Assembly: GCA_964404925.1 (NCBI GenBank)
Contig: CAYOLW010000001.1
Coordinates: forward strand, 2,106 to 66,105
DNA: 64,000 nucleotides
DNA from: an uncultured Candidatus Saccharibacteria bacterium
GTDB taxonomy: Bacteria > Patescibacteriota > Minisyncoccia > Phycocordibacterales > UBA9973
Reading direction: 5' to 3'
The translations under genes were made by a program, and so were the position numbers. Positions 3,006-63,989 of the stretch are shown piece after piece. Within the stretch, counting starts at the first letter, position 1, and every line of letters starts with the position of its first letter. Under the pieces are notes generated by a model. The model was not told the origin of the DNA. It did no database searches and was given only the letters and a program-made list of their open reading frames with translations.

Positions 3006-3326
3006 ATGAACACACAAAACGCACAAAGTGCAATAAGGAACAACATAATAAGTTTATTTGGTATCGACACACTACCAGAAGAAAAACAAGAAGAGGTTAT
3101 AAGTAAAATCGGTAAAATGATTTTTCAAGCTGTTTTGATGAGGGTGCTACCAATGCTTGAAGAAGAAGACCTAAAATCCTATGATGAATTAGTGGCAACT
3201 AAACCAGGACCAGACGAATTAATGGGCTTCCTATTAGATAAAGTCCCTGAATTCCTAGACATAGTAGCAGAAGAATCAGAGAATTTTAGATCAGATGCTG
3301 AAGCAGTCATAAAACAAGTTAACTAA
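3006..3326 (+). CDS. Hypothetical small acidic protein (106 aa).
   Basis: The ORF is followed directly by a rho-independent terminator. Confidence 0.4.
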   Translation: MNTQNAQSAIRNNIISLFGIDTLPEEKQEEVISKIGKMIFQAVLMRVLPMLEEEDLKSYDELVATKPGPDELMGFLLDKVPEFLDIVAEESENFRSDAEAVIKQVN

Positions 3327-3330
3327 ACTA

Positions 3331-3358
3331 AAAACCCCGGGCAACCGGGGTTTTTAGT
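3331..3358 (+). terminator. Rho-independent terminator.
   Basis: The hairpin aaaaccccgg-gcaa-ccggggtttt is followed by a T-run. Confidence 0.7.
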
Positions 3359-3376
3359 TTGTGCTATATTTAGTGG

Positions 3377-31977: not shown

Positions 31978-32029
31978 GGCCTTATTTTAGCTTAAAAACT
32001 ATGTATAATCCATACTAGTAACACAATCA

Positions 32030-32057
32030 AAAAACCTGGGTTACTCCCAGGTTTTTT
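32030..32057 (-). terminator. Bidirectional rho-independent terminator with an A-run, the stem acctggg/cccaggt, and a T-run.
   Basis: The sequence is aaaaaacctgggttactcccaggtttttt. It lies downstream of the small acidic ORF on the minus strand. Confidence 0.65.
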
Positions 32058-32066
32058 GATTTTTAT

Positions 32067-36559: not shown

Positions 36560-39019
36560 ATGCAGGCAATGAAGAAAGACAAGAAGGTTTTGGTTCTACT
36601 CGACGCGCATGCGATTATTCATCGGGCATATCATGCATTGCCTGACTTTTCAGCGTCCACCGGAGAACCAACAGGTGCACTCTATGGGCTTTCAAACATG
36701 CTCATGAAAATAATTGATGATTTAAAGCCTGACTACATTGTGGCTTGTTATGATTTACCAGAAAAAACATTTAGACACGAAGCCTATGATGGATACAAGG
36801 CTGGCCGAGCTAAATCTGATCCAGCATTGATTGCACAGCTTATAAGTTCTCGTAAAATATTTGAAGCATTTAATATACCAATATATGATGCACCTGGGTT
36901 TGAAGCTGATGATGAGCTTGGCACAATTGCTGAAATGATGAAAAGCGAAAAAGAAGTGGAGGTGGTTATCGCTTCAGGGGATATGGATACAATGCAGCTT
37001 GTCGACGGTAAAAGGGTTCAGGTATATACACTAAAGAAAGGAATTAACGACACAATACTTTATGATGAGGATGCTGTTGTAGCTCGATTTGGATTTGCGC
37101 CAGAATTTCTTCCAGACTATAAGGGACTACGGGGCGACCCTTCGGACAACATAATAGGTATTAAAGGAATTGGAGAAAAAACAGCCACCACTTTAATACA
37201 AAAATTCGGTACAGTTGAAAAGATGTACGAAGCTTTGAAAAAAGTAGGCGCTCAAGATGATTTTAAAAAGTTTGGAATTACAGAAAGAATATTTAATCTA
37301 TTAAAAGACGGAGAAGAAGAAGCGTTGTTTTCTAAAACATTAGCAACCATCAGGCGAGATGCACCGATAGATTTCAAGCTTCCAGAGAAGACTTTCTGGC
37401 AGAATGCAGATGTAAAAAAAATAGAGAAAACTTTTAATGAATTTGAATTTCGTAGTTTGTTTGTCCGCTTACGTAATTTTTTTAGTGCTGGAGAAAGCCA
37501 GGAAAATTTACATGAATTTGTTCAGGTCCTCGGGTTGCCCGCGCAGAATTATAACAAAAGTTCGGGCTCAACCAGACCGCTCACAAATTCAGTAAATTCT
37601 ACTGGCGAAATTAATCCACAAGAATTAGAAGAAACCGCTATTGCACTCTGGCTCGTAAATTCAGAGATTTCTAATCCGAACTTGGATGATATTTTGCGTT
37701 TTGCTAAAACCTATGATTTTAAAGTGGCTCGTGATTTTATATTTGGCAGACTAAAAGGGGATGGGATAGAAAAGGTTTTTACAGAAATAGAAAAACCGAT
37801 TATTGGAATAGTGCATACAATGGAAGAGAGGGGTATCCTGCTTGATCAAGCATACTTTAAAAAAATAAGTGAAGATTATCAGAAAGAATTAGATTCTCTG
37901 ACTAAAAAGATTTATACCCTCGCTGGTACAGAGTTCAACATAAATTCACCCAAGCAAATAGCAGAAGTGCTTTTTGAAAAAATGGGAATAAAAACAAACA
38001 AAAAACGTGGTGCATCAGGTAGTTTTTCTACCAAAGCATCAATTCTAGAAGAGTTAGAAGAGGGGAATCCAATCATCACAGAAATAATGTCATACCGTGA
38101 GATTTCAAAACTACTCTCCACATATATTAATGTATTACCAAGTATGGTTGCAGAAGATGGTAGGCTGCACGCTAAATTTATCCAAAACGCTACTACCACT
38201 GGAAGATTCTCCTCACTTGATCCTAATCTACAAAACTTGCCAATAAAAAGTGAACTTGGTCGCAAAATCCGCGATGGTTTCGTAGCTGCACCAGGACACC
38301 AACTACTCGCACTTGATTACTCGCAGATTGAGCTACGGGTGGCAGCGATATTGTCCGGGGATGAAAACCTAACTCAGATTTTTGCTGAAGGCAAAGATGT
38401 GCATAGTGGAGTGGCGTCTTTTGTCTTTGGTGTGCCGATAGACAAGGTGGATAAAGAAATGCGCCGGAAGGCCAAGGTTATAAACTTTGGCATTATATAT
38501 GGTATGGGGGTGACAGCTTTGCGTAAGAACCTGGGTGGCACTCGCGAAGAAGCACAGAAATTTTATGATAATTACTTCCGTCAATTTAAAGGCGTGGCAG
38601 AATACCTTGAACAGACAAAAGAATTCGCTAAAGCCAAAGGCTATACCGAAACCCTATTTGGCCGCCGCCGATACTTTAAAGATATTAATTCAAGGCTACC
38701 TTTCCTGAAAAATATGGCTGAACGTACAGCCACCAATGCACCTATTCAGGGTACCGCGACCGCAGACATAATCAAACTCGCAATCCGGTACGCACATGAA
38801 GATTTAGAAAAAGCAGGACTTTTGAAAAAAGTACATTTGATACTTCAAATCCATGATGAGCTTGTGTATGAAGTAGAAGATTCTGTATTACAACAAGCAA
38901 CCGAAATAATAAAAAATGCCATGGAAGGCGTGCTGGCTCGATCATATATAAAATACAAAACAGAAATTACACTTATTGTCGGCTATGGCGCGGGCAAAAA
39001 CCTGGGGGAGGTGAAATAA
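36560..39019 (+). CDS. polA: DNA polymerase I with a 5'-3' exonuclease domain and a polymerase domain. The middle region lacks recognisable 3'-5' exonuclease motifs.
   Basis: The 5' nuclease N-terminus is VLVLLDAHAIIHRAYHAL. Pol motif A is DYSQIELR, motif B is RRKAKVINFGIIYG, and motif C is QIHDELVYEV. The true start may be the second ATG at 36569, which lies right after TATAAT at 36556-36561. Confidence 0.9.
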   Translation: MQAMKKDKKVLVLLDAHAIIHRAYHALPDFSASTGEPTGALYGLSNMLMKIIDDLKPDYIVACYDLPEKTFRHEAYDGYKAGRAKSDPALIAQLISSRKIFEAFNIPIYDAPGFEADDELGTIAEMMKSEKEVEVVIASGDMDTMQLVDGKRVQVYTLKKGINDTILYDEDAVVARFGFAPEFLPDYKGLRGDPSDNIIGIKGIGEKTATTLIQKFGTVEKMYEALKKVGAQDDFKKFGITERIFNLLKDGEEEALFSKTLATIRRDAPIDFKLPEKTFWQNADVKKIEKTFNEFEFRSLFVRLRNFFSAGESQENLHEFVQVLGLPAQNYNKSSGSTRPLTNSVNSTGEINPQELEETAIALWLVNSEISNPNLDDILRFAKTYDFKVARDFIFGRLKGDGIEKVFTEIEKPIIGIVHTMEERGILLDQAYFKKISEDYQKELDSLTKKIYTLAGTEFNINSPKQIAEVLFEKMGIKTNKKRGASGSFSTKASILEELEEGNPIITEIMSYREISKLLSTYINVLPSMVAEDGRLHAKFIQNATTTGRFSSLDPNLQNLPIKSELGRKIRDGFVAAPGHQLLALDYSQIELRVAAILSGDENLTQIFAEGKDVHSGVASFVFGVPIDKVDKEMRRKAKVINFGIIYGMGVTALRKNLGGTREEAQKFYDNYFRQFKGVAEYLEQTKEFAKAKGYTETLFGRRRYFKDINSRLPFLKNMAERTATNAPIQGTATADIIKLAIRYAHEDLEKAGLLKKVHLILQIHDELVYEVEDSVLQQATEIIKNAMEGVLARSYIKYKTEITLIVGYGAGKNLGEVK
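37528..37578 (+). repeat. GC-rich palindromic in-frame insertion within polA, encoding ...LGLPAQNYNKSSGSTRP.... It is a degenerate member of the family also found in uvrA and uvrC.
   Basis: The arms gggttgcccg and cgggctcaacc are near-complementary around an AT-rich loop. The core ggNtcaacc encodes G-S-T in the host frame. Confidence 0.45.
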
Positions 39020-43427: not shown

Positions 43428-45545
43428 GTGTCGCAAAATCAAGGAAAGGTATTTAAATTAAAGAGTGAATACAAACCTGCCGGGGATCAACCCAAGGCTA
43501 TTTCTGAATTGGTGGATGGTCTTAAAAAAGGAATGAAAAAGCAAACCCTCCTCGGTGCCACCGGTACTGGTAAGACTTTCACCATGGCGAATGTTATTGC
43601 TGAGTATAATCGTCCAGCTTTGGTTATTGCGCACAATAAGACACTGGCTGCTCAGCTGGCCCAAGAGTTCAAAGCATTTTTTCCTGATGCTGCGGTGCAC
43701 TATTTTGTTTCTTATTACGATTACTATCAACCCGAAGCCTATATGCCAGTATCAGATACTTATATAGAAAAAGATGCTCAGATTAACAAAGAGATAGACC
43801 GTTTGCGACATGCTTCAACCCAGGCATTGCTTACTCGACCCGATACAATCATCGTTGCATCGGTATCTTGTATTTATGGTTTAGGTTCTCCCAAGGAGTA
43901 CGAAAAAGTAAATATGAAACTAGAGGCAGGAATGAAGATAGATAGAAACACTCTAATGAAGAGGTTGATTGAAATACATTTTTCAAGGACCAACGCAGAC
44001 CTTTTGCCTGGAACTTTTCGTGCGGTAGGGCCCAAGGTTGAATTTATGCCAGTTTCAGAGAATATCATGTACTCAATAGAGTTTGGTATTACTGGAGTGG
44101 ATAAAATATTTAAAATAGATCCAGTCTCGATGAGAATAGTCCAAGAAGAGAAGCACGTTTTTATTTTTCCAGCCAAGCACTTCATTACTGAAGATAAAAA
44201 AGTAAAAATTGCATTAGATAATATCAAAAAGGAACTAGCTCTTCAGTTAAAGAAATTTGAAAAGGAAGGAAAGTTGCTTGAAGCAGAGAGGATAAAAAGG
44301 AGGACTAACTACGATCTAGCTATGATAAAAGAAGTTGGCTACTGTAGCGGAATAGAAAATTACTCCAGGCATTTGTCTGGGAAAAAAGAAGGTGAGGCTC
44401 CAGACACACTCCTGTCGTATTTTCCAGATGGATTCCTGACAATTATCGATGAATCGCATGTGACCTTGCCGCAACTTTCTGGTATGTATGCTGGCGATGC
44501 TTCTCGCAAAACGACTTTAGTTGAATATGGATTTCGCCTACCTAGCGCAAAAGACAACCGACCACTTAAGTATCCTGAGTTTGGAGAAAGAATTAATTCG
44601 GTAATTTATACCAGTGCTACTCCTGGAGATTTAGAAAGAGAAGAAAGCGCCCAGATTGTAGAACAGATAATTCGTCCAACAGGGCTTGTTGATCCAGAAA
44701 CAATAATCCGTCCAGTTTCCGAGAAGGGTAAATATCCAGGCCAAATTCAAGATTTCATTATTGAAACAGAAGTTACTATAAAACGAGGTTATAGGGTTTT
44801 GGCGACAACCCTCACTAAGAAAATGGCTGAAGACTTATCTGTATACCTAAAGGATAAAAAAATTAAGGCTGAGTATCTACATAGTGATATTAAAACGATA
44901 GACAGAATAAAAATTCTTACAGAATTCCGTAAGGGTAAATTTGATGTATTAGTAGGTGTTAACTTGTTGCGTGAAGGTCTGGATTTGCCTGAGGTGGCAT
45001 TGATTGGAATTTTTGATGCTGACAAAGAAGGATTCTTGCGTAGCGAAACAGCATTGATTCAAACCATTGGCCGAGCTGCCCGTAATGCTGAGGGCCGAGT
45101 TATTTTATATGCTGATCAACTAACCGGATCTATGGACCGTGCACTAGGGGAGACTAAACGCCGTCGAGACATACAGATTGCTTATAATAAGAAGCACGGT
45201 ATAACACCCAAAACTATATTGAAAAACATTAAAGATATTACCGAAGAACTTGAAAGCGAGCACAGTAAGGCTGTAAATGCTGAACTTAATATAGACTTAG
45301 AGGTGTTCAAAAAAGCATATGCAAAAGAGTTGAAATTAGATAAAACAAAAATTACTAAACAAAAAGATGGAACAACAGAGGTAAAACTGCACATGTCAGA
45401 CGAAGAGCGCAGTGATTTGGTGTATGAAAAAATAATAAAAATAAAAGAGAAAGAAATGAATAAAGCAGTGAAGGAACTTGATTTTGAAACTGCCGCTATA
45501 TTGCGCGATGAAATTGTTGTTTTGCGCGAAAGGTCTAAAAAGTAA
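43428..45545 (+). CDS. uvrB: Excinuclease ABC subunit B.
   Basis: The N-terminus FKLKSEYKPAGDQPKAI and Walker A GATGTGKTFT are present. The helicase motif is DESH. The C-terminal UvrB/UvrC interaction helix is FETAAILRDEIVVLRE. Confidence 0.95.
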   Translation: MSQNQGKVFKLKSEYKPAGDQPKAISELVDGLKKGMKKQTLLGATGTGKTFTMANVIAEYNRPALVIAHNKTLAAQLAQEFKAFFPDAAVHYFVSYYDYYQPEAYMPVSDTYIEKDAQINKEIDRLRHASTQALLTRPDTIIVASVSCIYGLGSPKEYEKVNMKLEAGMKIDRNTLMKRLIEIHFSRTNADLLPGTFRAVGPKVEFMPVSENIMYSIEFGITGVDKIFKIDPVSMRIVQEEKHVFIFPAKHFITEDKKVKIALDNIKKELALQLKKFEKEGKLLEAERIKRRTNYDLAMIKEVGYCSGIENYSRHLSGKKEGEAPDTLLSYFPDGFLTIIDESHVTLPQLSGMYAGDASRKTTLVEYGFRLPSAKDNRPLKYPEFGERINSVIYTSATPGDLEREESAQIVEQIIRPTGLVDPETIIRPVSEKGKYPGQIQDFIIETEVTIKRGYRVLATTLTKKMAEDLSVYLKDKKIKAEYLHSDIKTIDRIKILTEFRKGKFDVLVGVNLLREGLDLPEVALIGIFDADKEGFLRSETALIQTIGRAARNAEGRVILYADQLTGSMDRALGETKRRRDIQIAYNKKHGITPKTILKNIKDITEELESEHSKAVNAELNIDLEVFKKAYAKELKLDKTKITKQKDGTTEVKLHMSDEERSDLVYEKIIKIKEKEMNKAVKELDFETAAILRDEIVVLRERSKK

Positions 45546-45562
45546 TTTGGTATACTAGTTAA

Positions 45563-46213
45563 ATGGCAAACATATTGGAAATAGGGGGCGGCAGGACTCC
45601 ATTTTTTATAAGGTACAAGATACCACTCAATAATGAAGATGTTTATATTGCGATAGACTCAGATAAGGAAAATATTCAAATGGCAGAATACTCTCTCCAT
45701 CATCATTTTAAAGAACCAAAACAATTATATAAAACACAAATTAAACAAGCGGATGCGTCCGTGGGCGTCCCTTATCCAGATAATTATTTTGATAAAGTTG
45801 TAATTAGTAACACTTTTTCTGCACCAATCCATAAAAATTGGGATGAGAATGGGTACACCGTAAAAACAAAAATTGGTGAAGAAATAGTTGAACGCAAAAT
45901 TCGTGAAGCATCTTCTAATGAAGACCCTTTTTATATTGAAAGAAGAAAAATGCTAGATGAGGCACTGAGGGTTCTGAAGACTGGGGGAGAATTGTTTATT
46001 TACACTGATTTGATAATCTACGGAATAGAATCATATGAGCGTTTAGTTAAAGAATTAAAAAACGATTATTTTATGTCTTATGTATTTGATACCAAAGAAG
46101 CTTCTAGGATAGACACCTTAAATAAGCAAAAATTAGTATCCAATGAATTTTGTTGTTGTTTCAGGGCGGAAGTTTTACCAAGGTCTGAGGTACACAGAGT
46201 TATTAAGGTTTAG
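45563..46213 (+). CDS. Putative class I SAM-dependent methyltransferase (216 aa).
   Basis: Motif I is LEIGGG, followed by an acidic post-I AIDSD and a motif II/III-like KVVISN ... LKTGGELFIY. The substrate is unknown. Confidence 0.45.
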   Translation: MANILEIGGGRTPFFIRYKIPLNNEDVYIAIDSDKENIQMAEYSLHHHFKEPKQLYKTQIKQADASVGVPYPDNYFDKVVISNTFSAPIHKNWDENGYTVKTKIGEEIVERKIREASSNEDPFYIERRKMLDEALRVLKTGGELFIYTDLIIYGIESYERLVKELKNDYFMSYVFDTKEASRIDTLNKQKLVSNEFCCCFRAEVLPRSEVHRVIKV

Positions 46214-46242
46214 CTTATAAAAAGACACCATATAATTGGCTT

Positions 46243-46270
46243 TGTCAATTAGGGTTGATTTTGCTATAAT
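46243..46270 (+). promoter_or_regulatory. Promoter for uvrA with TTGTCA, a 17-nt spacer and TATAAT.
   Basis: TTGTCA at 46243-46248 and TATAAT at 46265-46270, 9 nt before the ATG at 46280. Confidence 0.5.
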
Positions 46271-46279
46271 ACAACGTTC

Positions 46280-48910
46280 ATGAAAGATAAAAAATCAGAC
46301 AAACACGAATCTATAATTATTCGCGGAGCCAGGACACACAATCTGCGTAATATTGATGTGGAGATGCCCCGTAACAAAATGACGGTTATTACTGGTGTTT
46401 CAGGTTCTGGTAAATCTTCTCTTGCTTTTGACACAGTGTTTGCTGAGGGGCAGAGGAGGTATGTGGAATCACTTTCTTCATATGCTCGACAGTTTTTAAA
46501 CCAAATGCCCAAACCAGATGTGGACGAGATTACCGGACTTTCTCCAGCCATATCAATTGATCAAAAATCCAGGTCTAACAACCCTCGTTCAACAGTAGCA
46601 ACCATTACTGAAATCTACGACTACCTGCGTGTGATGTACGCCCGCATTGGGCACCCGCACTGTCCAGAGTGTGGTGAAGAAATCAAGAAACTGTCTAATG
46701 AAGAAATATTAAATTTTGTTTTAGATAAAGTTAATAGTTTCAGTAAGGCAAAAAAGGGCACCAAAAAAGTTCTAGATGTAGAGTGGAATGAAACTGAAAT
46801 AAGTATTTATGCACCTGTGGTCCGTGGACGTAAAGGGGAGTACTATCAGCTTTTATATGATTTGCTTGGTAAGGGTTTTACTCAAATACGATTAGATGGT
46901 GAGATAAAAAACTTGCGTGAACAAATAACCTTATCAAAAAACAAAGCCCACACCATTGAAGTTTTGGTTGATCACTTTGCATTGCATGAATTTATCGACA
47001 ATAAAGACACAGCCAAGACACGTCTGGCTGAAGCCTTGGAACGTGCCTTATTAGAATCTGACGGGTTAGTAAACATTAAAGTAAGCGATGAAGAGTTTCT
47101 AATGTCAGCTAAATTTGCTTGTAAAAATGATGGTTTTTCCTTTCCAGAAGTTGAACCAAGACTTTTCTCATTTAATTCACCGTATGGTGCCTGCCCAACA
47201 TGTAATGGACTTGGAACGAAATACTTTGGTGGGTTAGACCCATGTGATGATTGTCAGGGTGCACGACTAAGAAAAGAAGCGTTACATGTATTCTTGAGGT
47301 CGGATTCCCGAGGTTCGACCTCGGGAGGGGTAAATATTTTAGATTTAGCAAATCTCTCTGTTGCTGAGGCTTATGCTTTTTTTAAAAATTTAAAATTATC
47401 CGACAAAGAAAAAGAAATATCGCTACCGGTAGTTAGAGAAATAACTGACCGAATCAAATTCATGCTTGATGTAGGGCTCGACTACTTGCAACTTTCTCGT
47501 AAGGCCAACACCCTCTCCGGCGGGGAAGCACAGCGTATCAGGCTTGCTTCACAATTGGGCTCACGGCTCGTAGGTGCATTGTATGTGCTCGACGAGCCAA
47601 CGATTGGATTACACCAGCGGGATAATGATAGACTTATTAAAACATTGCTTGATTTGAGAGATTTAGGAAATACTATTTTAGTTGTTGAACATGATGAAGA
47701 CACTATCTATGCATCAGACTATATTGTGGATATTGGGCCTAAGGCTGGTGTGCATGGAGGGAATGTGGTTGTGTCTGGATATCTAGAAGATTTATTGACT
47801 GCTAAAAAGAACACCAGTGGATCACGTACCTTATCTTATTTGAGAGAAGAAACCAGAATAGAGATTCCTGAAAAGCGTCGTGATGCTAAAGGATGGCTCA
47901 AAATAGTTGGTGGAAAGGTTTTTAATATAGACAATATTAATGTTGAAATACCGCTAGGAGTAATGACTTGCATAACTGGAGTTTCAGGTAGTGGTAAGAG
48001 CTCTTTTATGTATGAAATTTTACACAAGAACCTGCAAGCTAGGTATGAAAGGAAATACCGTACAGCGGAAGTTTTTAACTGTTCTTCTTTTACTGGAACC
48101 GAGTATCTATCCAGAACTGTTCTGATAGATCAGTCACCAATTGGAAGAACACCTAGATCTAATATAGCTACTTATACCGGTACTTTTACGCACATCCGGG
48201 ATTTGTTTGCTGAGACCGAAGAATCAAAGTTCCGTGGTTGGAAGTCCAATAGATTTTCTTTTAATGTTAAAGGTGGTCGCTGTGAAGCTTGTGAAGGTAA
48301 TGGTGAGATAGCTGTTGAAATGCACTTTTTGCCAACAGTCTATGTAACCTGTGATGTATGCGGTGGAAAAAGATTTGATAAAGAAACACTGACAGTCAAA
48401 TATAAAAAGAAAAATATTTATGAAGTTTTGCGAATGACGGTAGAAGAAGGACTTGAATTCTTTAAGGATATTCCAGCTGTATATGATAGATTAGCTACAT
48501 TGATTGATGTTGGTTTAGGTTATCTAGAACTGGGTCAATCTGCCACAACCCTCTCCGGCGGGGAAGCACAGCGCGTAAAAATATCGAGTGAACTTTTTGA
48601 ATACCGAATGTCCCACCTACGTTCAGAGAAGACTATTTATTTATTGGACGAACCAACTGTAGGGTTACACTACGATGATGTAGCCAAACTACTAGAAGTA
48701 TTACAAAAGCTGGTTACCAAAGGAAACGCAGTTGTTTTAATTGAACATAATTTAGATATAATAAAAAGTGCTGATTATTTAATTGATTTTGGTCCCGAAG
48801 GTGGTACTGGTGGTGGTAATGTGGTTGCTCGTGGCACCCCAGAAGAGGTGGCTAATTCTCCTAAGAGTCATACAGGTAAATATTTGAAGAAAGTTTTACG
48901 CAAAAAATAA
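46280..48910 (+). CDS. uvrA: Excinuclease ABC subunit A.
   Basis: Two ABC modules are present: Walker A GVSGSGKSS twice, and signature LSGGEAQR twice. Zinc-finger cysteines are CPECGEE and CEACEG...CDVCGG. Confidence 0.95.
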   Translation: MKDKKSDKHESIIIRGARTHNLRNIDVEMPRNKMTVITGVSGSGKSSLAFDTVFAEGQRRYVESLSSYARQFLNQMPKPDVDEITGLSPAISIDQKSRSNNPRSTVATITEIYDYLRVMYARIGHPHCPECGEEIKKLSNEEILNFVLDKVNSFSKAKKGTKKVLDVEWNETEISIYAPVVRGRKGEYYQLLYDLLGKGFTQIRLDGEIKNLREQITLSKNKAHTIEVLVDHFALHEFIDNKDTAKTRLAEALERALLESDGLVNIKVSDEEFLMSAKFACKNDGFSFPEVEPRLFSFNSPYGACPTCNGLGTKYFGGLDPCDDCQGARLRKEALHVFLRSDSRGSTSGGVNILDLANLSVAEAYAFFKNLKLSDKEKEISLPVVREITDRIKFMLDVGLDYLQLSRKANTLSGGEAQRIRLASQLGSRLVGALYVLDEPTIGLHQRDNDRLIKTLLDLRDLGNTILVVEHDEDTIYASDYIVDIGPKAGVHGGNVVVSGYLEDLLTAKKNTSGSRTLSYLREETRIEIPEKRRDAKGWLKIVGGKVFNIDNINVEIPLGVMTCITGVSGSGKSSFMYEILHKNLQARYERKYRTAEVFNCSSFTGTEYLSRTVLIDQSPIGRTPRSNIATYTGTFTHIRDLFAETEESKFRGWKSNRFSFNVKGGRCEACEGNGEIAVEMHFLPTVYVTCDVCGGKRFDKETLTVKYKKKNIYEVLRMTVEEGLEFFKDIPAVYDRLATLIDVGLGYLELGQSATTLSGGEAQRVKISSELFEYRMSHLRSEKTIYLLDEPTVGLHYDDVAKLLEVLQKLVTKGNAVVLIEHNLDIIKSADYLIDFGPEGGTGGGNVVARGTPEEVANSPKSHTGKYLKKVLRKK
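47297..47327 (+). repeat. GC-rich palindromic in-frame element within uvrA, encoding ...RSDSRGSTSGG....
   Basis: The sequence is gaggtcggattcccgaggttcgacctcgggag, with arms cccgagg/cctcggg and gaggtcg/cgacctc. Its core matches the uvrC copies. Confidence 0.5.
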
Positions 48911-50203
48911 ATGAAACTAGAAAGTTTTAAAAAATTAAATTTACCGGAAAAACCAGGGGTTTATTTTTTCTTGGGTTATGAAAAATCGGGGTTGAACCCC
49001 GGGAATTCTAGGGGTTCAACCCCTGAAATATCTGGAAACGTACTTTACATCGGCAAGGCAACCAGTTTGCGTGACCGAGTTCGGAGTTATTTTTCTAAAG
49101 ATCTTATTGAAACTCGCGGTCCACTTTTAGTGGATATGGTTTGGAAGGCTACTGACATTAAATGGCAGGAAACAGAAAGTGTACTCGAAGCCCTAATCCT
49201 TGAAGCTAATTTAATAAAGAAACATCAGCCGTATTACAATACCAAAGAAAAAGACGACAAAAGCTTTAATTATGTTTGTATTACTTCTGAAAAAAGAATA
49301 CGTGTTATAAGAGGTAAGGATTTAAAACAAACAAAAGAAAAGTTCAAAAATACATTTGGTCCATATACTAACGGAGGACAACTGCGTGAAGCGTTAAAAA
49401 TAATTCGAAAGTTCTTCCCATTCATAGAAGACCGAAAGGGAACTAAAGGCAAAGAAGAATTTTACCGTCAGATAAAATTGATGCCCGAGAACATGAAAGA
49501 CAACACTAAAAATATTCGTAATATAATTTACTTCTTTGAAGGTAAGAAGAAAAAGATTATTAGCGGGCTAGTTCGAGAAATGAAGTCTTTGGCTAAAACA
49601 AAAAAATTTGAAGAAGCAAATGAAATAAAGAAAAAGATTTTTGCCCTAAATCATATTAATGACATTGCTTTGATTAAAAACGACTTGGCGGGCGGGAAGA
49701 GGTTGGACCTCGGGGGTTCTAGAGGTCCAACCTCAAAGAGCCATCAAACATTTCGTATTGAAGCCTATGATATAGCCCATATGGCTGGCAGGAACATGGT
49801 GGGCGTAATGACAGTGGTGGAAAATGGAGAAATAAATAAAAGAGAGTATAAGAAATTTAAAATCAAAACCCAATCTAATGCTAACGACACAGGTGCACTA
49901 ACCGAGGTATTGGAGAGGAGGTTTGGCCACCTTGAGTGGCAATTACCTAATCTGATTGTGGTTGATGGCGGAAAAGCTCAGATAAATTTTGCCGAGAAGG
50001 TTCTACAAAGAATGAATATACAAATACCAATAGTATCTGTCTTGAAAGACGAAAGGCATAGACCCAAAAACATTTTAGGTGACAAAGATTTAGCTAGAAA
50101 GTATGAGAGAGAAATACTACTGGCCAATGCTGAGGCTCACAGGTTCTCTATTGGTTATCATAAACAAATGCGGAATAAAAACTTTTTACCCAATGCAAAG
50201 TAA
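48911..50203 (+). CDS. uvrC: Excinuclease ABC subunit C (short form, 430 aa). It has a GIY-YIG nuclease and a UvrC middle/RNase H-like domain. The C-terminal HhH region appears absent.
   Basis: The GIY-YIG region is PGVYFFLGY...VLYIGKATSLRDRVRSYF, interrupted by a ~14-aa insertion. The gene directly follows uvrA. Confidence 0.8.
   Translation: MKLESFKKLNLPEKPGVYFFLGYEKSGLNPGNSRGSTPEISGNVLYIGKATSLRDRVRSYFSKDLIETRGPLLVDMVWKATDIKWQETESVLEALILEANLIKKHQPYYNTKEKDDKSFNYVCITSEKRIRVIRGKDLKQTKEKFKNTFGPYTNGGQLREALKIIRKFFPFIEDRKGTKGKEEFYRQIKLMPENMKDNTKNIRNIIYFFEGKKKKIISGLVREMKSLAKTKKFEEANEIKKKIFALNHINDIALIKNDLAGGKRLDLGGSRGPTSKSHQTFRIEAYDIAHMAGRNMVGVMTVVENGEINKREYKKFKIKTQSNANDTGALTEVLERRFGHLEWQLPNLIVVDGGKAQINFAEKVLQRMNIQIPIVSVLKDERHRPKNILGDKDLARKYEREILLANAEAHRFSIGYHKQMRNKNFLPNAK
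48988..49023 (+). repeat. GC-rich palindromic in-frame element within the uvrC GIY-YIG motif, encoding SGLNPGNSRGSTPE.
   Basis: The arms ggggttgaacccc and ggggttcaacccc are exact reverse complements, and the loop is gggaattcta. Confidence 0.6.
49699..49734 (+). repeat. Second GC-rich palindromic in-frame element within uvrC, encoding LDLGGSRGPTSK.
   Basis: The arms gaggttggacctc and gaggtccaacctc are exact reverse complements. The loop gggggttcta is nearly identical to the loop of the first uvrC copy. Confidence 0.6.
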
Positions 50204-54339: not shown

Positions 54340-54395
54340 AAACAAAACTTAAAAACACTTACATAAGAGTAAGTGTTTTTAAGTTTTGTTTCCAC
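54340..54395 (+). terminator. Long perfect palindrome (arms of about 24 bp) after the tRNA-Arg gene, a likely terminator.
   Basis: The arms aaaacaaaacttaaaaacacttac and taagtgtttttaagttttgtttcc are separated by ataagag. Confidence 0.55.
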
Positions 54396-63427: not shown

Positions 63428-63434
63428 AGTGTTA

Positions 63435-63480
63435 AGCCATAAATAAAAAACCACTTTAAAAGTGGTTTTTTATTTATGGC
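63435..63480. terminator. 46-bp perfect palindrome between convergent genes, acting as a bidirectional terminator.
   Basis: The arms gccataaataaaaaaccactttt and aaaagtggttttttatttatggc are exact reverse complements of each other. Confidence 0.7.
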
Positions 63481-63989
63481 TTATAAAGCAACTTTAGCTT
63501 TTCGAGCCCACGATGTAATTGTACTGCTAAATAGTTTTTTGAGTGGCCAGTAATAAGTGACATTTCTTCAAGAGATAAATCTTGTACATGCCGCATTCGC
63601 ATAATCTTGCGGTACGCTATTGGTAATTTACTGATTAATAAAACAGCAGCTTTGCCATCTAAAATATGTAACATTCTATTAGAAGTGTTTTCGCTCGGCT
63701 CAAACCCTTTTTCTAGCAAAGAGTCCAAAGATACTGCCTTATGTTTTCTATACTGATCAATTATCAGAGCATTTAATACGTGAAATAGAAATGATTTCAT
63801 CGTTTCTATTTTTCCAACTTTTACCAAGTATTTCCATGTTTTAAGGAAGGTATCTTGAACTAAATCATCACTTACTGCATGATCGCCAGTTTTAAAAAAT
63901 GCTCGGGCATTCAGGCCTCTCCCATAGTCCTTGTGTGCTAGAGATATTATGGCTTGCCGCAAGATTCTTTGTTTTGGAGTCATGGTCAT
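63474..63989 (-). CDS. ECF-type RNA polymerase sigma-70 family factor.
   Basis: Region 2 is DLVQDTFLKTWKYL...IIDQYRK. Region 4 is YRKIMRMRHVQDLSLEEMSLITGHSKNYLAVQLHRGLEKLK. Confidence 0.75.
   Translation of the reverse strand: MTMTPKQRILRQAIISLAHKDYGRGLNARAFFKTGDHAVSDDLVQDTFLKTWKYLVKVGKIETMKSFLFHVLNALIIDQYRKHKAVSLDSLLEKGFEPSENTSNRMLHILDGKAAVLLISKLPIAYRKIMRMRHVQDLSLEEMSLITGHSKNYLAVQLHRGLEKLKLLYKP

What the first reader, a model, noticed from the sequence alone, without database searches (positions are those of the whole stretch)
49699..49734. Second in-frame palindromic element in uvrC (LDLGGSRGPTSK)
The arms gaggttggacctc and gaggtccaacctc are exact reverse complements. The loop gggggttcta is almost identical to the loop of the first copy. 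The arm sequences differ from copy 1 while staying self-complementary, which again conserves structure rather than sequence. Two such insertions sit in one 1.3-kb gene, and this uvrC also lacks the usual C-terminal HhH region.
Basis: seen in the sequence. Interest (0 to 1): 0.6.

Follow-up and report, generated by a model that had tools for sequence, protein, structure and literature searches.

The report
In-frame hairpin insertion element in uvrC
A 36-base perfect hairpin sequence sits in frame inside the DNA-repair gene uvrC of an ultra-small (Patescibacteria) bacterium. It is one copy of an apparently undescribed family of short palindromic insertions found inside housekeeping genes, especially DNA-repair genes, across this bacterial group.

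Summary
Window 49699-49734 has 13-nt arms (GAGGTTGGACCTC / GAGGTCCAACCTC) that are exact reverse complements around a 10-nt loop, in frame in uvrC. It folds at -32 kcal/mol (z -5.8) and has 61% GC in a 37% GC gene.

It is an insertion, not UvrC core. Most of 120 homologs lack it. It lies in the linker just before the RNase H-like nuclease domain, where the model has pLDDT below 50.

A covariance model finds three copies in the 64 kb: this one, copy 1 (48988-49023) and a 9-nt-deleted relic in uvrA (47296-47322).

Scans of public genomes and metagenomes found 129 distinct 36-mers of the same design, nearly all in Patescibacteria. In 99 the arms pair perfectly, although the pattern left five positions per arm free. 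All three reading frames are used. About 70% lie in open frames of housekeeping genes, and none interrupts one. At least seven sites fall in uvrA, uvrB and uvrC.

Best reading: a selfish or neutral palindromic insertion element, like the Rickettsia palindromic elements but much smaller. It is translated into disordered loops, and its arms are probably kept symmetric by arm-to-arm copying. How it moves, and why it favours repair genes, is unexplained.

The parts
49699..49734 (.). Copy 2, the finding. A 36-nt perfect palindromic core: arm GAGGTTGGACCTC, loop GGGGGTTCTA, arm GAGGTCCAACCTC. It is read in frame on the + strand as (K)RLDLGGSRGPTS.
   Evidence: The RNA fold is -32.1 kcal/mol with z -5.8. 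The family covariance model scores it at 52.7 bits.
49691..49742 (+). Extended 52-nt unit of copy 2: the core plus outer flanks GGCGGGAA (49691-49698) and AAAGAGCC (49735-49742). The same flanks bracket copies in other genes and genomes.
   Evidence: One search finds the flanks GGCGGGRA ... RARGAGCC at UvrC site 2 (L001, L003), UvrC site 1 (L025), RecJ (L015, L019), LeuRS (L049) and ComEC (L033). The predicted fold closes them with GGC/GCC pairs.
48988..49023 (.). Copy 1 in the same gene: GGGGTTGAACCCC GGGAATTCTA GGGGTTCAACCCC. It is read as (S)GLNPGNSRGSTP and sits in the loop between the GIY and YIG strands.
   Evidence: The fold is -28.7 kcal/mol with z -5.5. The model scores it at 49.5 bits. 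The copy at the same site in L005 carries a compensated arm change.
47296..47322 (.). Decayed third copy in uvrA, read as RSD-SRGSTS. It is orthologous to intact 36-nt copies in the uvrA of relatives and is 9 nt (3 codons) shorter.
   Evidence: The model scores it at 16.7 bits, E 0.011. The fold is -21.1 kcal/mol with z -2.8.
48911..50203 (+). Host gene uvrC (430 aa): GIY-YIG, UVR and RNase H-like endonuclease domains, with no (HhH)2 domain.
   Evidence: Pfam, PDB matches and the AlphaFold model.
46280..48910 (+). Host gene uvrA (876 aa), which carries the relic copy.
43428..45545 (+). uvrB (705 aa). It has empty sites at the two positions where relatives carry the element, near 44067-44123 and 44706-44750.
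   Evidence: At the first site, the filled gene (L016) and the empty gene (window) differ by exactly 12 codons.

Best explanation
The segment is one copy of a family of very short palindromic insertion elements of Patescibacteria (the candidate phyla radiation).

**Anatomy.** The core is 36 bp: two 13-bp arms of the form GRGGT-YSR-ACCYC in inverted orientation around a variable 10-bp loop. In one subfamily, including this copy, the core carries 8-bp outer flanks.

**What is shown.** Copies have landed inside genes and survive where 12 or more extra residues are tolerated. In uvrC those places are the GIY/YIG hairpin loop and the linker before the nuclease domain. Because the core is a multiple of three bases and the arms are almost free of stop triplets, it is read through as a hydrophilic, disordered loop peptide.

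**What is inferred.** Translation through the element is inferred from open frames only. The element itself probably contributes nothing to UvrC. It is selfish or neutral DNA, comparable to Rickettsia palindromic elements but about a third of their size. The perfect pairing of the arms is probably maintained mechanically, by copying one arm from the other (template switching at a hairpin, or inversion between the arms), and not by selection on an mRNA fold. The enzyme or process that spreads the element is unknown.
For: 1. **It is an insertion.** Most UvrC homologs lack it. Site 1 has the minimal 5-residue spacer in 72 of 113 homologs, and site 2 varies from 9 to 52 residues. The closest relative sampled (L190, 76% identity) has site 1 and the uvrA site empty. 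At one uvrB site, filled and empty genes differ by exactly 12 codons.
2. **It is a dispersed family.** The pattern scan found 62 stretches in one-genome-per-species bacteria and archaea, nearly all Patescibacteria. It found at least 120 more in metagenomes. About 0.3 chance hits are expected in the genome set, by my estimate from pattern degeneracy and database size.
3. **Identity lies at the DNA level.** In 99 of 129 distinct copies the arms pair perfectly, against about 13 expected if partners were shuffled. All five free positions covary. All three reading frames are used, 41/32/23, giving unrelated peptides.
4. **It is tolerated and read through.** 91 of 128 perfect copies lie in open frames, and none truly interrupts a gene. 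The uvrA relic lost exactly 9 nt. Both uvrC sites are disordered loops in the model and lie outside the solved UvrC domains.
5. **Hosts are unrelated housekeeping genes.** Pfam-confirmed examples are RecJ, RecG, UvrD, PolA, TopA, TsaD, SecA, enolase and ATP synthase gamma. Tgt and LeuRS were identified by reading the translations.
6. **It decays in some lineages.** The site 2 copy in L191 has decayed, so it is not universally maintained.
7. **Arm copying is plausible.** At UvrC site 1, L191 has perfect 17-nt arms with the same flanks and loop length. That is a length change mirrored in both arms. The loop occurs in both orientations relative to conserved flanks.
Against: - No transposase, target-site duplication or autonomous parent element was found. 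No copy was found in viral contigs or phage records. Mobility is therefore inferred, not shown.
- Copy number is very low: 3 in 64 kb, and 1-4 strict hits per genome. That is unusual for a selfish repeat.
- Copies at orthologous sites stay 35/36 identical between genes whose proteins are only 63% identical (window against L001). GC-rich arms also persist in a 37% GC genome. Both facts suggest constraint or repeated renewal.
- The concentration in uvrA, uvrB and uvrC (at least 7 sites) and in other genome-maintenance genes is not predicted by random insertion.
Confidence: 0.6

Rival explanations
1. The hairpin is a functional cis-acting RNA element. A stable stem inside the coding region of uvrA, uvrB, uvrC and other housekeeping mRNAs is bound or cut by a conserved factor, for example a double-strand-specific RNase or a dimeric RNA-binding protein. 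This would tune translation or mRNA half-life, and the stem would be kept by selection.
For: The predicted stems are very stable. All variable stem positions covary. Compensated changes occur at orthologous sites, for example window copy 1 against L005. The L003 copy has one G-T mispair, which would be a G-U wobble in RNA. The stem duplex has its own two-fold symmetry, as expected for a dimeric binder. All three copies in the window lie in nucleotide-excision-repair genes.
Against: Presence is patchy even among close relatives. L190 has none in uvrA or at uvrC site 1, and the window's own uvrB has none. Copies decay in some lineages. No Rfam family matches. Copies occur on either strand relative to the host gene, and also between genes. 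Mirrored length changes and loop inversion point to a DNA-level process.
Confidence: 0.13
2. The arms are DNA-level recognition sites. Each 13-bp arm (GAGGT-YSR-ACCTC) is itself a dyad-symmetric site for a dimeric DNA-binding protein. The function would be recombination, uptake or chromosome organisation, and the sites would be preferentially kept in genome-maintenance genes, as was once reported for DNA uptake sequences.
For: Each arm is a near-perfect palindrome of 5+3+5 bases. Single arms also occur alone at the tip of other hairpins. Roughly 19 of about 75 distinct coding sites, by my count from the host clusters, are in UvrA, UvrB, UvrC, UvrD, RecJ, RecG, PolA, TopA, XerC/D or ComEC. A bias of uptake sequences toward genome-maintenance genes was reported by Davidsen et al. 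2004, as summarised in PMC2817400.
Against: Density is far too low for an uptake signal. There are five arms in 64 kb, all within 2.4 kb, and only one strict hit on a 693-kb Parcubacteria contig. The re-analysis in PMC2817400 did not confirm a strong genome-maintenance bias even for true uptake sequences. The centre triplets of the two arms are inverted, not repeated directly, in 101 of 129 copies (25 are direct). A site read only as duplex DNA would not require this.
Confidence: 0.1
3. The encoded peptide (RSDL-x3-RGPTS) is a functional module shared by the Uvr proteins, for example a docking or modification motif. The palindromic DNA would then be incidental.
For: In uvrA, uvrB and uvrC of the window's close relatives the same frame and nearly the same peptide recur at seven sites. 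These genes encode UvrA and UvrB proteins 75-84% identical to the window's UvrA and to the UvrB of locus L001.
Against: Across the family all three frames are used, 41/32/23, giving unrelated peptides. A distant UvrC (L142) carries the element at site 3 in another frame. Copies also lie between genes. The peptide is predicted to be disordered, and most UvrC homologs lack it.
Confidence: 0.03
4. The palindrome is a chance match or an assembly artefact.
For: None was found. Palindromes can arise from chimeric reads.
Against: The same element sits at the same codon position in independent assemblies from different samples (L001 and L002, L003 and L004, L006 and L007). Chance expectation is far below the number observed.
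Confidence: 0.01

Closest known systems
Rickettsia palindromic elements (RPE; Ogata et al. 2000, as listed in the review PMC3184786)
   Same: Both are palindromic repeats found inside protein-coding genes, in frame, in unrelated housekeeping genes, and apparently read through. No transposase or target duplication is known for either. Both occur in reduced genomes.
   Different: RPEs are about 105-146 bp and confined to Rickettsia. This element is 36 bp (52 bp with flanks). No comparison with RPE sequences was made. It is spread across many Patescibacteria lineages, has very low copy number per genome, and has arms that are themselves dyad-symmetric.
REP / BIME elements (repetitive extragenic palindromes)
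   Same: Both are about 35 bp, GC-rich and form a stable stem-loop.
   Different: By definition REPs are extragenic and occur in high copy number. Most carry a GTAG or CGTC tag (PMC3733652; abstract seen). Here about 70% of copies lie inside open frames, only 10 of 121 have such a tetranucleotide nearby, and copy number is 1-4 per genome.
Coding palindromes and GC-rich hairpin elements of mitochondrial genes (Nematomorpha coding palindromes, PMC6649704; yeast GC clusters and Allomyces double-hairpin elements, from my own knowledge)
   Same: Both are perfect inverted repeats embedded in translated genes. In both, hairpin structure and protein function coexist, and arm symmetry may be kept by a DNA-level process.
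   Different: Those are organellar. The Nematomorpha arms encode conserved protein regions and reach 284 bp. Here the element is an added, disordered loop in bacterial genes.
DNA uptake sequences (DUS/USS) of Neisseria and Pasteurellaceae
   Same: Both are short conserved motifs tolerated in coding regions. DUS are often paired as inverted repeats (from my own knowledge). A bias toward genome-maintenance genes has been reported for them.
   Different: Uptake sequences occur hundreds to thousands of times per genome (PMC2346458 abstract). This element occurs a handful of times. No uptake data exist for these organisms.
Miniature inverted-repeat transposable elements (MITEs)
   Same: Both have inverted terminal sequences, are non-coding in themselves, are dispersed, and are sometimes fused in frame to genes.
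   Different: MITEs are typically longer, have target-site duplications and have a related full-length insertion sequence (from my own knowledge). No clear duplication was seen here, and no parent element was found.

Membership tests
Rickettsia palindromic elements (RPE) | A palindromic repeat that forms a stable hairpin | tested here: met
   13-bp perfect stem, -32.1 kcal/mol, z -5.8
Rickettsia palindromic elements (RPE) | Inserted in frame within unrelated protein-coding genes at tolerated, surface-exposed positions | tested here: met
   91 of 128 perfect copies lie in open frames of many gene families. Both uvrC sites are low-confidence loops in the model.
Rickettsia palindromic elements (RPE) | Length about 105-146 bp and membership of the RPE sequence families of Rickettsia | tested here: not met
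   The core is 36 bp, or 52 bp with flanks. The hosts are Patescibacteria. The RPE size is taken from PMC3184786. No sequence comparison with RPE consensus sequences was run.
REP / BIME | Extragenic location | tested here: not met
   About 70% of copies are inside open reading frames.
REP / BIME | GTAG or CGTC tetranucleotide tag at one end | tested here: not met
   Only 10 of 121 copies have such a tetranucleotide within 8 nt of an end.
REP / BIME | High copy number | tested here: not met
   Three copies in 64 kb and 1-4 strict hits per genome.
REP / BIME | An associated REP-specific transposase (RAYT) in the same genome | not tested
MITE | Target-site duplication flanking the element | tested here: inconclusive
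   There is only a weak excess of 2-4 nt direct repeats, 26 observed against about 11 expected, and none longer.
MITE | A related autonomous insertion sequence with the same terminal repeats | not tested
   Solo arms in the fetched loci sit at hairpin tips, not at the ends of transposase genes. No systematic search was possible.
DNA uptake sequences | Hundreds to thousands of copies per genome | tested here: not met
   Five arms in 64 kb, all within 2.4 kb. One strict hit on a 693-kb contig.
DNA uptake sequences | Enhances uptake or transformation of DNA that carries it | not testable with these tools
   This needs an experiment in a cultivated host-symbiont system.
UvrC (host gene) | GIY-YIG nuclease, UvrB-binding UVR motif and RNase H-like endonuclease domain | tested here: met
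   Pfam gives PF01541 and PF08459 above their cut-offs and PF02151 just below its cut-off. PDB UvrC chains match residues 41-119 and 280-426.
UvrC (host gene) | C-terminal (HhH)2 DNA-binding domain | tested here: not met
   There is no HhH match. The protein ends a few residues after the nuclease domain. The match to 2nrt_A (T. maritima per my own knowledge) covers only residues 22-166 of its 220.

The most novel reading that the evidence does not exclude
The element is not junk. It would be a conserved cis-signal of Patescibacteria whose dyad-symmetric arms (GAGGT-N3-ACCTC, as duplex DNA or as an RNA or DNA hairpin stem) are recognised by a dimeric host protein. It would be retained preferentially in nucleotide-excision-repair and other genome-maintenance genes, because it couples their expression, recombination or repair to that protein. 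This would be a new kind of intragenic control or recombination signal in organisms that have few known regulators.
Probability: 0.12. Interest if true: 0.8.

Novelty: new variant of a known kind. Interest (0 to 1): 0.55.

Why it matters
In-frame palindromic 'selfish DNA' inside genes is best known from Rickettsia. This finding shows a much smaller, sequence-defined version spread across the candidate phyla radiation, a very large and poorly understood part of bacterial diversity.

It matters in three practical ways:

- It explains part of the erratic length variation of conserved proteins in these genomes.
- It warns annotators and structure predictors that such loops come from DNA elements.
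- It offers natural markers of positions where proteins tolerate insertions.

Three observations give testable leads on how palindromes are maintained and spread in streamlined genomes. The arms stay perfectly paired through substitutions, and apparently through a length change and loop inversion. The arm sequence recurs across many lineages of the phylum. Copies cluster in uvrA, uvrB, uvrC and other genome-maintenance genes. These leads also bear on whether the elements have been co-opted for a function.

Tried and rejected
- **Loop motif alone.** GGGRRTTCTA as a genome-wide motif is not significant: 10 matches against 11 expected.
- **Known RNA families.** The gathering-threshold scan of the window found only two tRNAs. 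The permissive scan of 47200-49800 found only a meaningless microRNA match at E 0.32.
- **Phage or viral origin.** There were no hits in IMG/VR contigs with the family pattern and no blastn hit in phage records.
- **REP or MITE membership.** There is no GTAG/CGTC tag and no clear target duplication.
- **Genes interrupted by a copy**, which would suggest removal at the RNA level. The single candidate (L035) is a false alarm, because the other strand has the real open frame.
- **tRNA resemblance.** The arm GGTTCGACC and the flank TTCCCGCCA in some copies resemble a T-arm plus acceptor end. I rejected this because the loop is two bases short, the complementary 5' strand is not in the same copy, and ARAGORN and Rfam call only the two real tRNAs in the window.
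- **Peptide-level function.** Rejected on frame usage.
- **Literature.** Seven full-text searches, five of them aimed at this question, found no description of such elements in Patescibacteria. The library is incomplete, so prior description elsewhere cannot be excluded.
Full report
**1. The observation**

At window 49699-49734 the sequence is GAGGTTGGACCTC GGGGGTTCTA GAGGTCCAACCTC. The two 13-nt arms are exact reverse complements around a 10-nt loop.

The segment lies in frame in a 430-codon ORF (48911-50203) and is read as K-RLDLGGSRGPTS. Pfam identifies the ORF as UvrC, with GIY-YIG, UVR and UvrC_RNaseH_dom matches and no helix-hairpin-helix match.

Its loop matches at 8 of 10 positions, and its arms differ at three positions, each compensated.

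As RNA, the two copies fold at -32.1 and -28.7 kcal/mol. Shuffled sequences give about -17 and -15, and none of 200 shuffles folds as well. Each element has 61% GC in a gene and window of 37% GC.

**2. How many copies are in the window**

The 13-mer arm motif GRGGTYSRACCYC occurs five times in 64 kb. Four occurrences are the arms of the two uvrC copies, and the fifth is in uvrA.

I built a covariance model from 99 family members and ran it over the whole window without filters. It finds only three elements:

| Position | Score | Identity |
|---|---|---|
| 49699-49734 | 52.7 bits | copy 2 |
| 48988-49023 | 49.5 bits | copy 1 |
| 47296-47322 | 16.7 bits, E 0.011 | relic in uvrA |

The uvrA match sits at the codon position where relatives (L017, L067, L050) carry an intact 36-nt copy. 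It is 9 nt shorter: RSD-SRGSTS against RSDLKGARGPTS. It is a decayed copy that lost exactly three codons.

**3. It is an insertion, not UvrC core**

The 120 best homologs are all from Paceibacterota, Nomurabacteria and similar groups. They are 354-476 aa long (the shortest is annotated as partial), and none lists an HhH domain.

- **Site 1** lies between the GIY strand (GVYFF) and the YIG strand (ILYIGKA). It has the minimal 5-residue spacer in 72 of 113 sequences and insertions in the rest.
- **Site 2** lies between the UVR helix and the first strand of the nuclease domain. It ranges from 9 to 52 residues.

The AlphaFold model has mean pLDDT 81.7. Apart from the last three residues, confidence is low only at 26-38 and 251-278. 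These segments are flanked by strands 16-21 and 44-50, and by helices 233-248 and 251-254 and strand 282-289.

Solved UvrC domains align to residues 41-119 and 280-426, so they stop at both insertions.

**4. Relatives with filled and empty sites**

Element-like peptides at site 2 occur in P0020, P0008 and, in decayed form, P0005. One occurs at site 1 in P0007, and one at a third site near the C-terminus in P0027. Their DNA shows the same design.

| Locus | Site | Sequence | Note |
|---|---|---|---|
| L001 | 2 | GAGGTTGGACCTC GGGGATTCTA GAGGTCCAACCTC | 35/36 identical to the window; the proteins are 63% identical |
| L003 | 2 | GAGGTCGGACCTC AAGGGGGTTC GAGGTTCGACCTC | one compensated change and one G-T pair |
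| L005 | 1 | GGGGTTGGACCCC AAGAATTCCA GGGGTCCAACCCC | differs from window copy 1 by a compensated pair |

The closest relative (L190, 76% identity) has site 1 and the uvrA site empty, and carries a different insertion at site 2.

The window's own uvrB (43428-45545) is empty at two positions where relatives carry the element. At one of them the filled and empty genes differ by exactly 12 codons.

In L191 the site 2 copy has decayed. In a neighbour-joining tree the site 2 carriers sit in one part of the tree, interspersed with non-carriers. This fits an old insertion with later loss or replacement. Repeated insertion cannot be excluded.

**5. The family at large**

I scanned with the pattern GRGGTYSRACCYC-N10-GRGGTYSRACCYC, which does not require the arms to pair. 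By my estimate from pattern degeneracy and database size, about 0.3 chance hits are expected in 596 Gb.

- It found 62 stretches in one-genome-per-species bacteria and archaea. Nearly all are Patescibacteria: Paceibacterota, Saccharibacteria, and the Lipton-, Uhr-, Yanofsky-, Azam-, Nomura-, Falkow-, Portnoy- and Nealsonbacteria.
- It found none in viral contigs.

Of 129 distinct 36-mers, 99 have perfectly complementary arms, against about 13 expected if partners were shuffled. The centre triplet is inverted in 101 and direct in 25. The direct-repeat cases are mostly tandem or high-GC repeats from Streptomyces, gammaproteobacterial, Prevotellaceae and other assemblies, and look unrelated.

All five free stem positions covary. 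Standard pairs form in 97.4% of cells against 90.0% in shuffles, and 187 cells show a change on both sides against 82.5 (0 of 500 shuffles reach either value). The pattern fixes eight positions per arm, so these counts say nothing about conservation at those positions.

**6. Where copies sit and how they are read**

Of 128 distinct perfect copies, 91 lie inside long open frames with no stop codon inside the element. Another 36 lie at gene edges, in short ORFs or between genes. The single apparent interruption is a false alarm.

All three reading frames are used, 41/32/23. They give RSDL..RGPTS, RGRTS..EVRP and EVGP..RSDL. The identity of the element is therefore in the DNA or RNA, not in the peptide.

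Hosts, with the number of sites where more than one:

- **Genome maintenance:** UvrA (2 sites), UvrB (2), UvrC (3, plus an independent hit at site 3 in a distant UvrC in another frame), UvrD, RecJ, RecG, PolA, TopA, XerC/D (2), ComEC (3).
- **tRNA-related:** TsaD (4), Tgt (3), LeuRS (3), CysRS, the CCA-adding enzyme.
- **Other:** CopA, SecA, RNase J, enolase, ATP synthase gamma, phosphoglycerate mutase, a glycosyltransferase and others.

The hosts checked with Pfam are RecJ, RecG, UvrD, PolA, TopA, CopA, the glycosyltransferase, enolase, SecA, RNase J, TsaD, ATP synthase gamma, phosphoglycerate mutase and the CCA enzyme. UvrA, UvrB and UvrC were assigned by BLAST against reference Uvr proteins. 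The rest were identified by reading the translations.

**7. Sub-structure of the element**

Each arm is itself nearly palindromic (GAGGT-YSR-ACCTC). Single arms also occur at the tip of other hairpins, including terminator-like ones.

One subfamily has conserved outer flanks, GGCGGGRA ... RARGAGCC. It includes window copy 2 (49691-49742), L001, L003, L025 site 1, and copies in RecJ, LeuRS and ComEC. Relative to these flanks the loop occurs in both orientations: GGGGATTCTA in some copies, and TTGAATCCCC or TAGTGATCCC in others.

At UvrC site 1, L191 carries a perfect palindrome with 17-nt arms, the same flanks and a 10-nt loop. That is a length change mirrored in both arms.

There is no GTAG or CGTC tag and no clear target-site duplication. 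About half of the copies extend the palindrome beyond 13 bp.

**8. Interpretation**

The evidence fits a dispersed palindromic insertion element that survives where extra residues are tolerated and is read through. This is the behaviour described for Rickettsia palindromic elements (review PMC3184786), but with a 36-52 bp unit instead of 105-146 bp.

Compensated substitutions alone could mean selection for a hairpin. However, the mirrored length change, the loop inversion and the decay in some lineages are more simply explained by arm-to-arm copying at the DNA level, such as template switching or recombination between the arms. This is an inference, and no experiment supports it here.

Four facts do not fit a purely passive element:

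- Copy number per genome is very low.
- GC-rich arms persist in AT-rich genomes.
- The window and L001 copies are near-identical while the surrounding genes have diverged.
- Copies are concentrated in uvrA, uvrB and uvrC. All three copies in this window are there, and so are about 10 of roughly 14 strict hits in the seven closest genome assemblies (my tally).

As a rough estimate, at least seven of about 75 distinct coding sites are in these three genes. Those genes make up roughly 1% of such a genome, so chance would give this about 2 times in 100,000. Hits are not independent, however, and sampling is uneven.

Possible reasons for the concentration are:

- local re-insertion within the uvrB-uvrA-uvrC cluster;
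- longer survival of insertions in large, conserved genes, where only precise in-frame deletion can remove them;
- a real function.

I could not separate these.

**9. Rivals**

- **Regulatory mRNA hairpin.** It is supported by the covariation and the clustering in repair genes. It is weakened by patchy presence among close relatives, by occurrence in either orientation and between genes, and by the DNA-level rearrangements.
- **DNA recognition or uptake signal.** The dyad-symmetric arms suggest it, and so does the reported bias of uptake sequences toward genome-maintenance genes. The density is orders of magnitude too low, and that bias was not confirmed on re-analysis (PMC2817400).
- **Peptide function.** Excluded by frame usage.
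- **Artefact.** Excluded by recurrence in independent assemblies.

**10. Novelty**

Seven full-text searches, five aimed at this question, found no description of such elements in Patescibacteria. The closest analogues found are Rickettsia palindromic elements and the coding palindromes of nematomorph mitochondria (PMC6649704).

I rate it a new variant of a known kind: real, apparently undescribed, moderately surprising, with an unexplained link to genome-maintenance genes.

Noticed in passing
window 47296-47322 (uvrA): A third, decayed copy of the element, read as RSD-SRGSTS. It sits at the same codon position as intact copies in the uvrA of relatives and is shorter by exactly three codons.
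   Followed up: yes
window 43428-50203; loci L016, L017, L025, L043, L050, L059, L066, L067, L073, L103, L113, L115, L137, L152, L156: Copies are concentrated in uvrA, uvrB and uvrC, at seven or more distinct sites. Several other host genes were hit at multiple independent sites: TsaD 4, Tgt 3, LeuRS 3, ComEC 3. The reason is unknown. Local re-insertion, differential survival and function are all possible.
   Followed up: partly
window 48911-50203 and 120 homologs: UvrC in this whole clade ends right after the RNase H-like nuclease domain and lacks the (HhH)2 DNA-binding domain. The listed homologs are 354-476 aa (the shortest is partial).
   Followed up: partly
UvrC homologs P0001-P0120, sites 1 and 2: The same two loops host several other recurrent insertion peptides. 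Examples are SPHPSPLLxKERG, FSQVLGS..AQPDHSK, IFGPAPFFGRIKGNKVGPSDTKI, RHSHSVLEGQ..SGRSEDS and LGTPKRSEGG. They look like translations of other repeat-element families. The L190 example is a degenerate palindrome by eye.
   Followed up: partly
window about 37515-37600 (polA, 36560-39019): PolA contains FVQVLGLPAQNYNKSSGSTRP, which resembles the FSQVLGS..AQPDHSK insertion family seen in the UvrC of other genomes. The DNA there is GC-rich but is not a clean palindrome.
   Followed up: partly
L191 about 1090-1190 (UvrC site 1): A perfect palindrome with 17-nt arms, GTCGGACGTTGGACGTC / GACGTCCAACGTCCGAC. It has a 10-nt loop and the same GGCGGAAAG flank as the 13-nt-arm family. This is a length change mirrored in both arms.
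   Followed up: partly
L033, L049 against window 49691-49742, L001, L025, L015: Relative to the conserved outer flanks GGCGGGRA ... RARGAGCC, the 10-nt loop occurs in both orientations. This looks like inversion of the spacer between the arms.
   Followed up: partly
L058 4119, L151 4119, L032 3431/3490, L077 2635/2694, L111 1591/1650: Single 13-mer arms (GAGGTYSRACCTC) sit at the tip of longer hairpins. Some are followed by T runs like terminators. The arm motif is therefore used outside the 36-nt element.
   Followed up: no
window 63433-63483, 54340-54391, 32025-32061, 3325-3360: Perfect AT-rich inverted repeats with 16-25 nt arms. The one at 54340-54391 begins just after tRNA-Arg. They are probably transcription terminators and are unrelated to the element.
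   Followed up: no
window 49004-49009 and 49718-49723: The loop of copy 1 contains an EcoRI site (GAATTC). The loop-arm junction of copy 2 contains an XbaI site (TCTAGA). Several family loops are themselves small palindromes, for example GGGATCCC. The significance is unknown.
   Followed up: no
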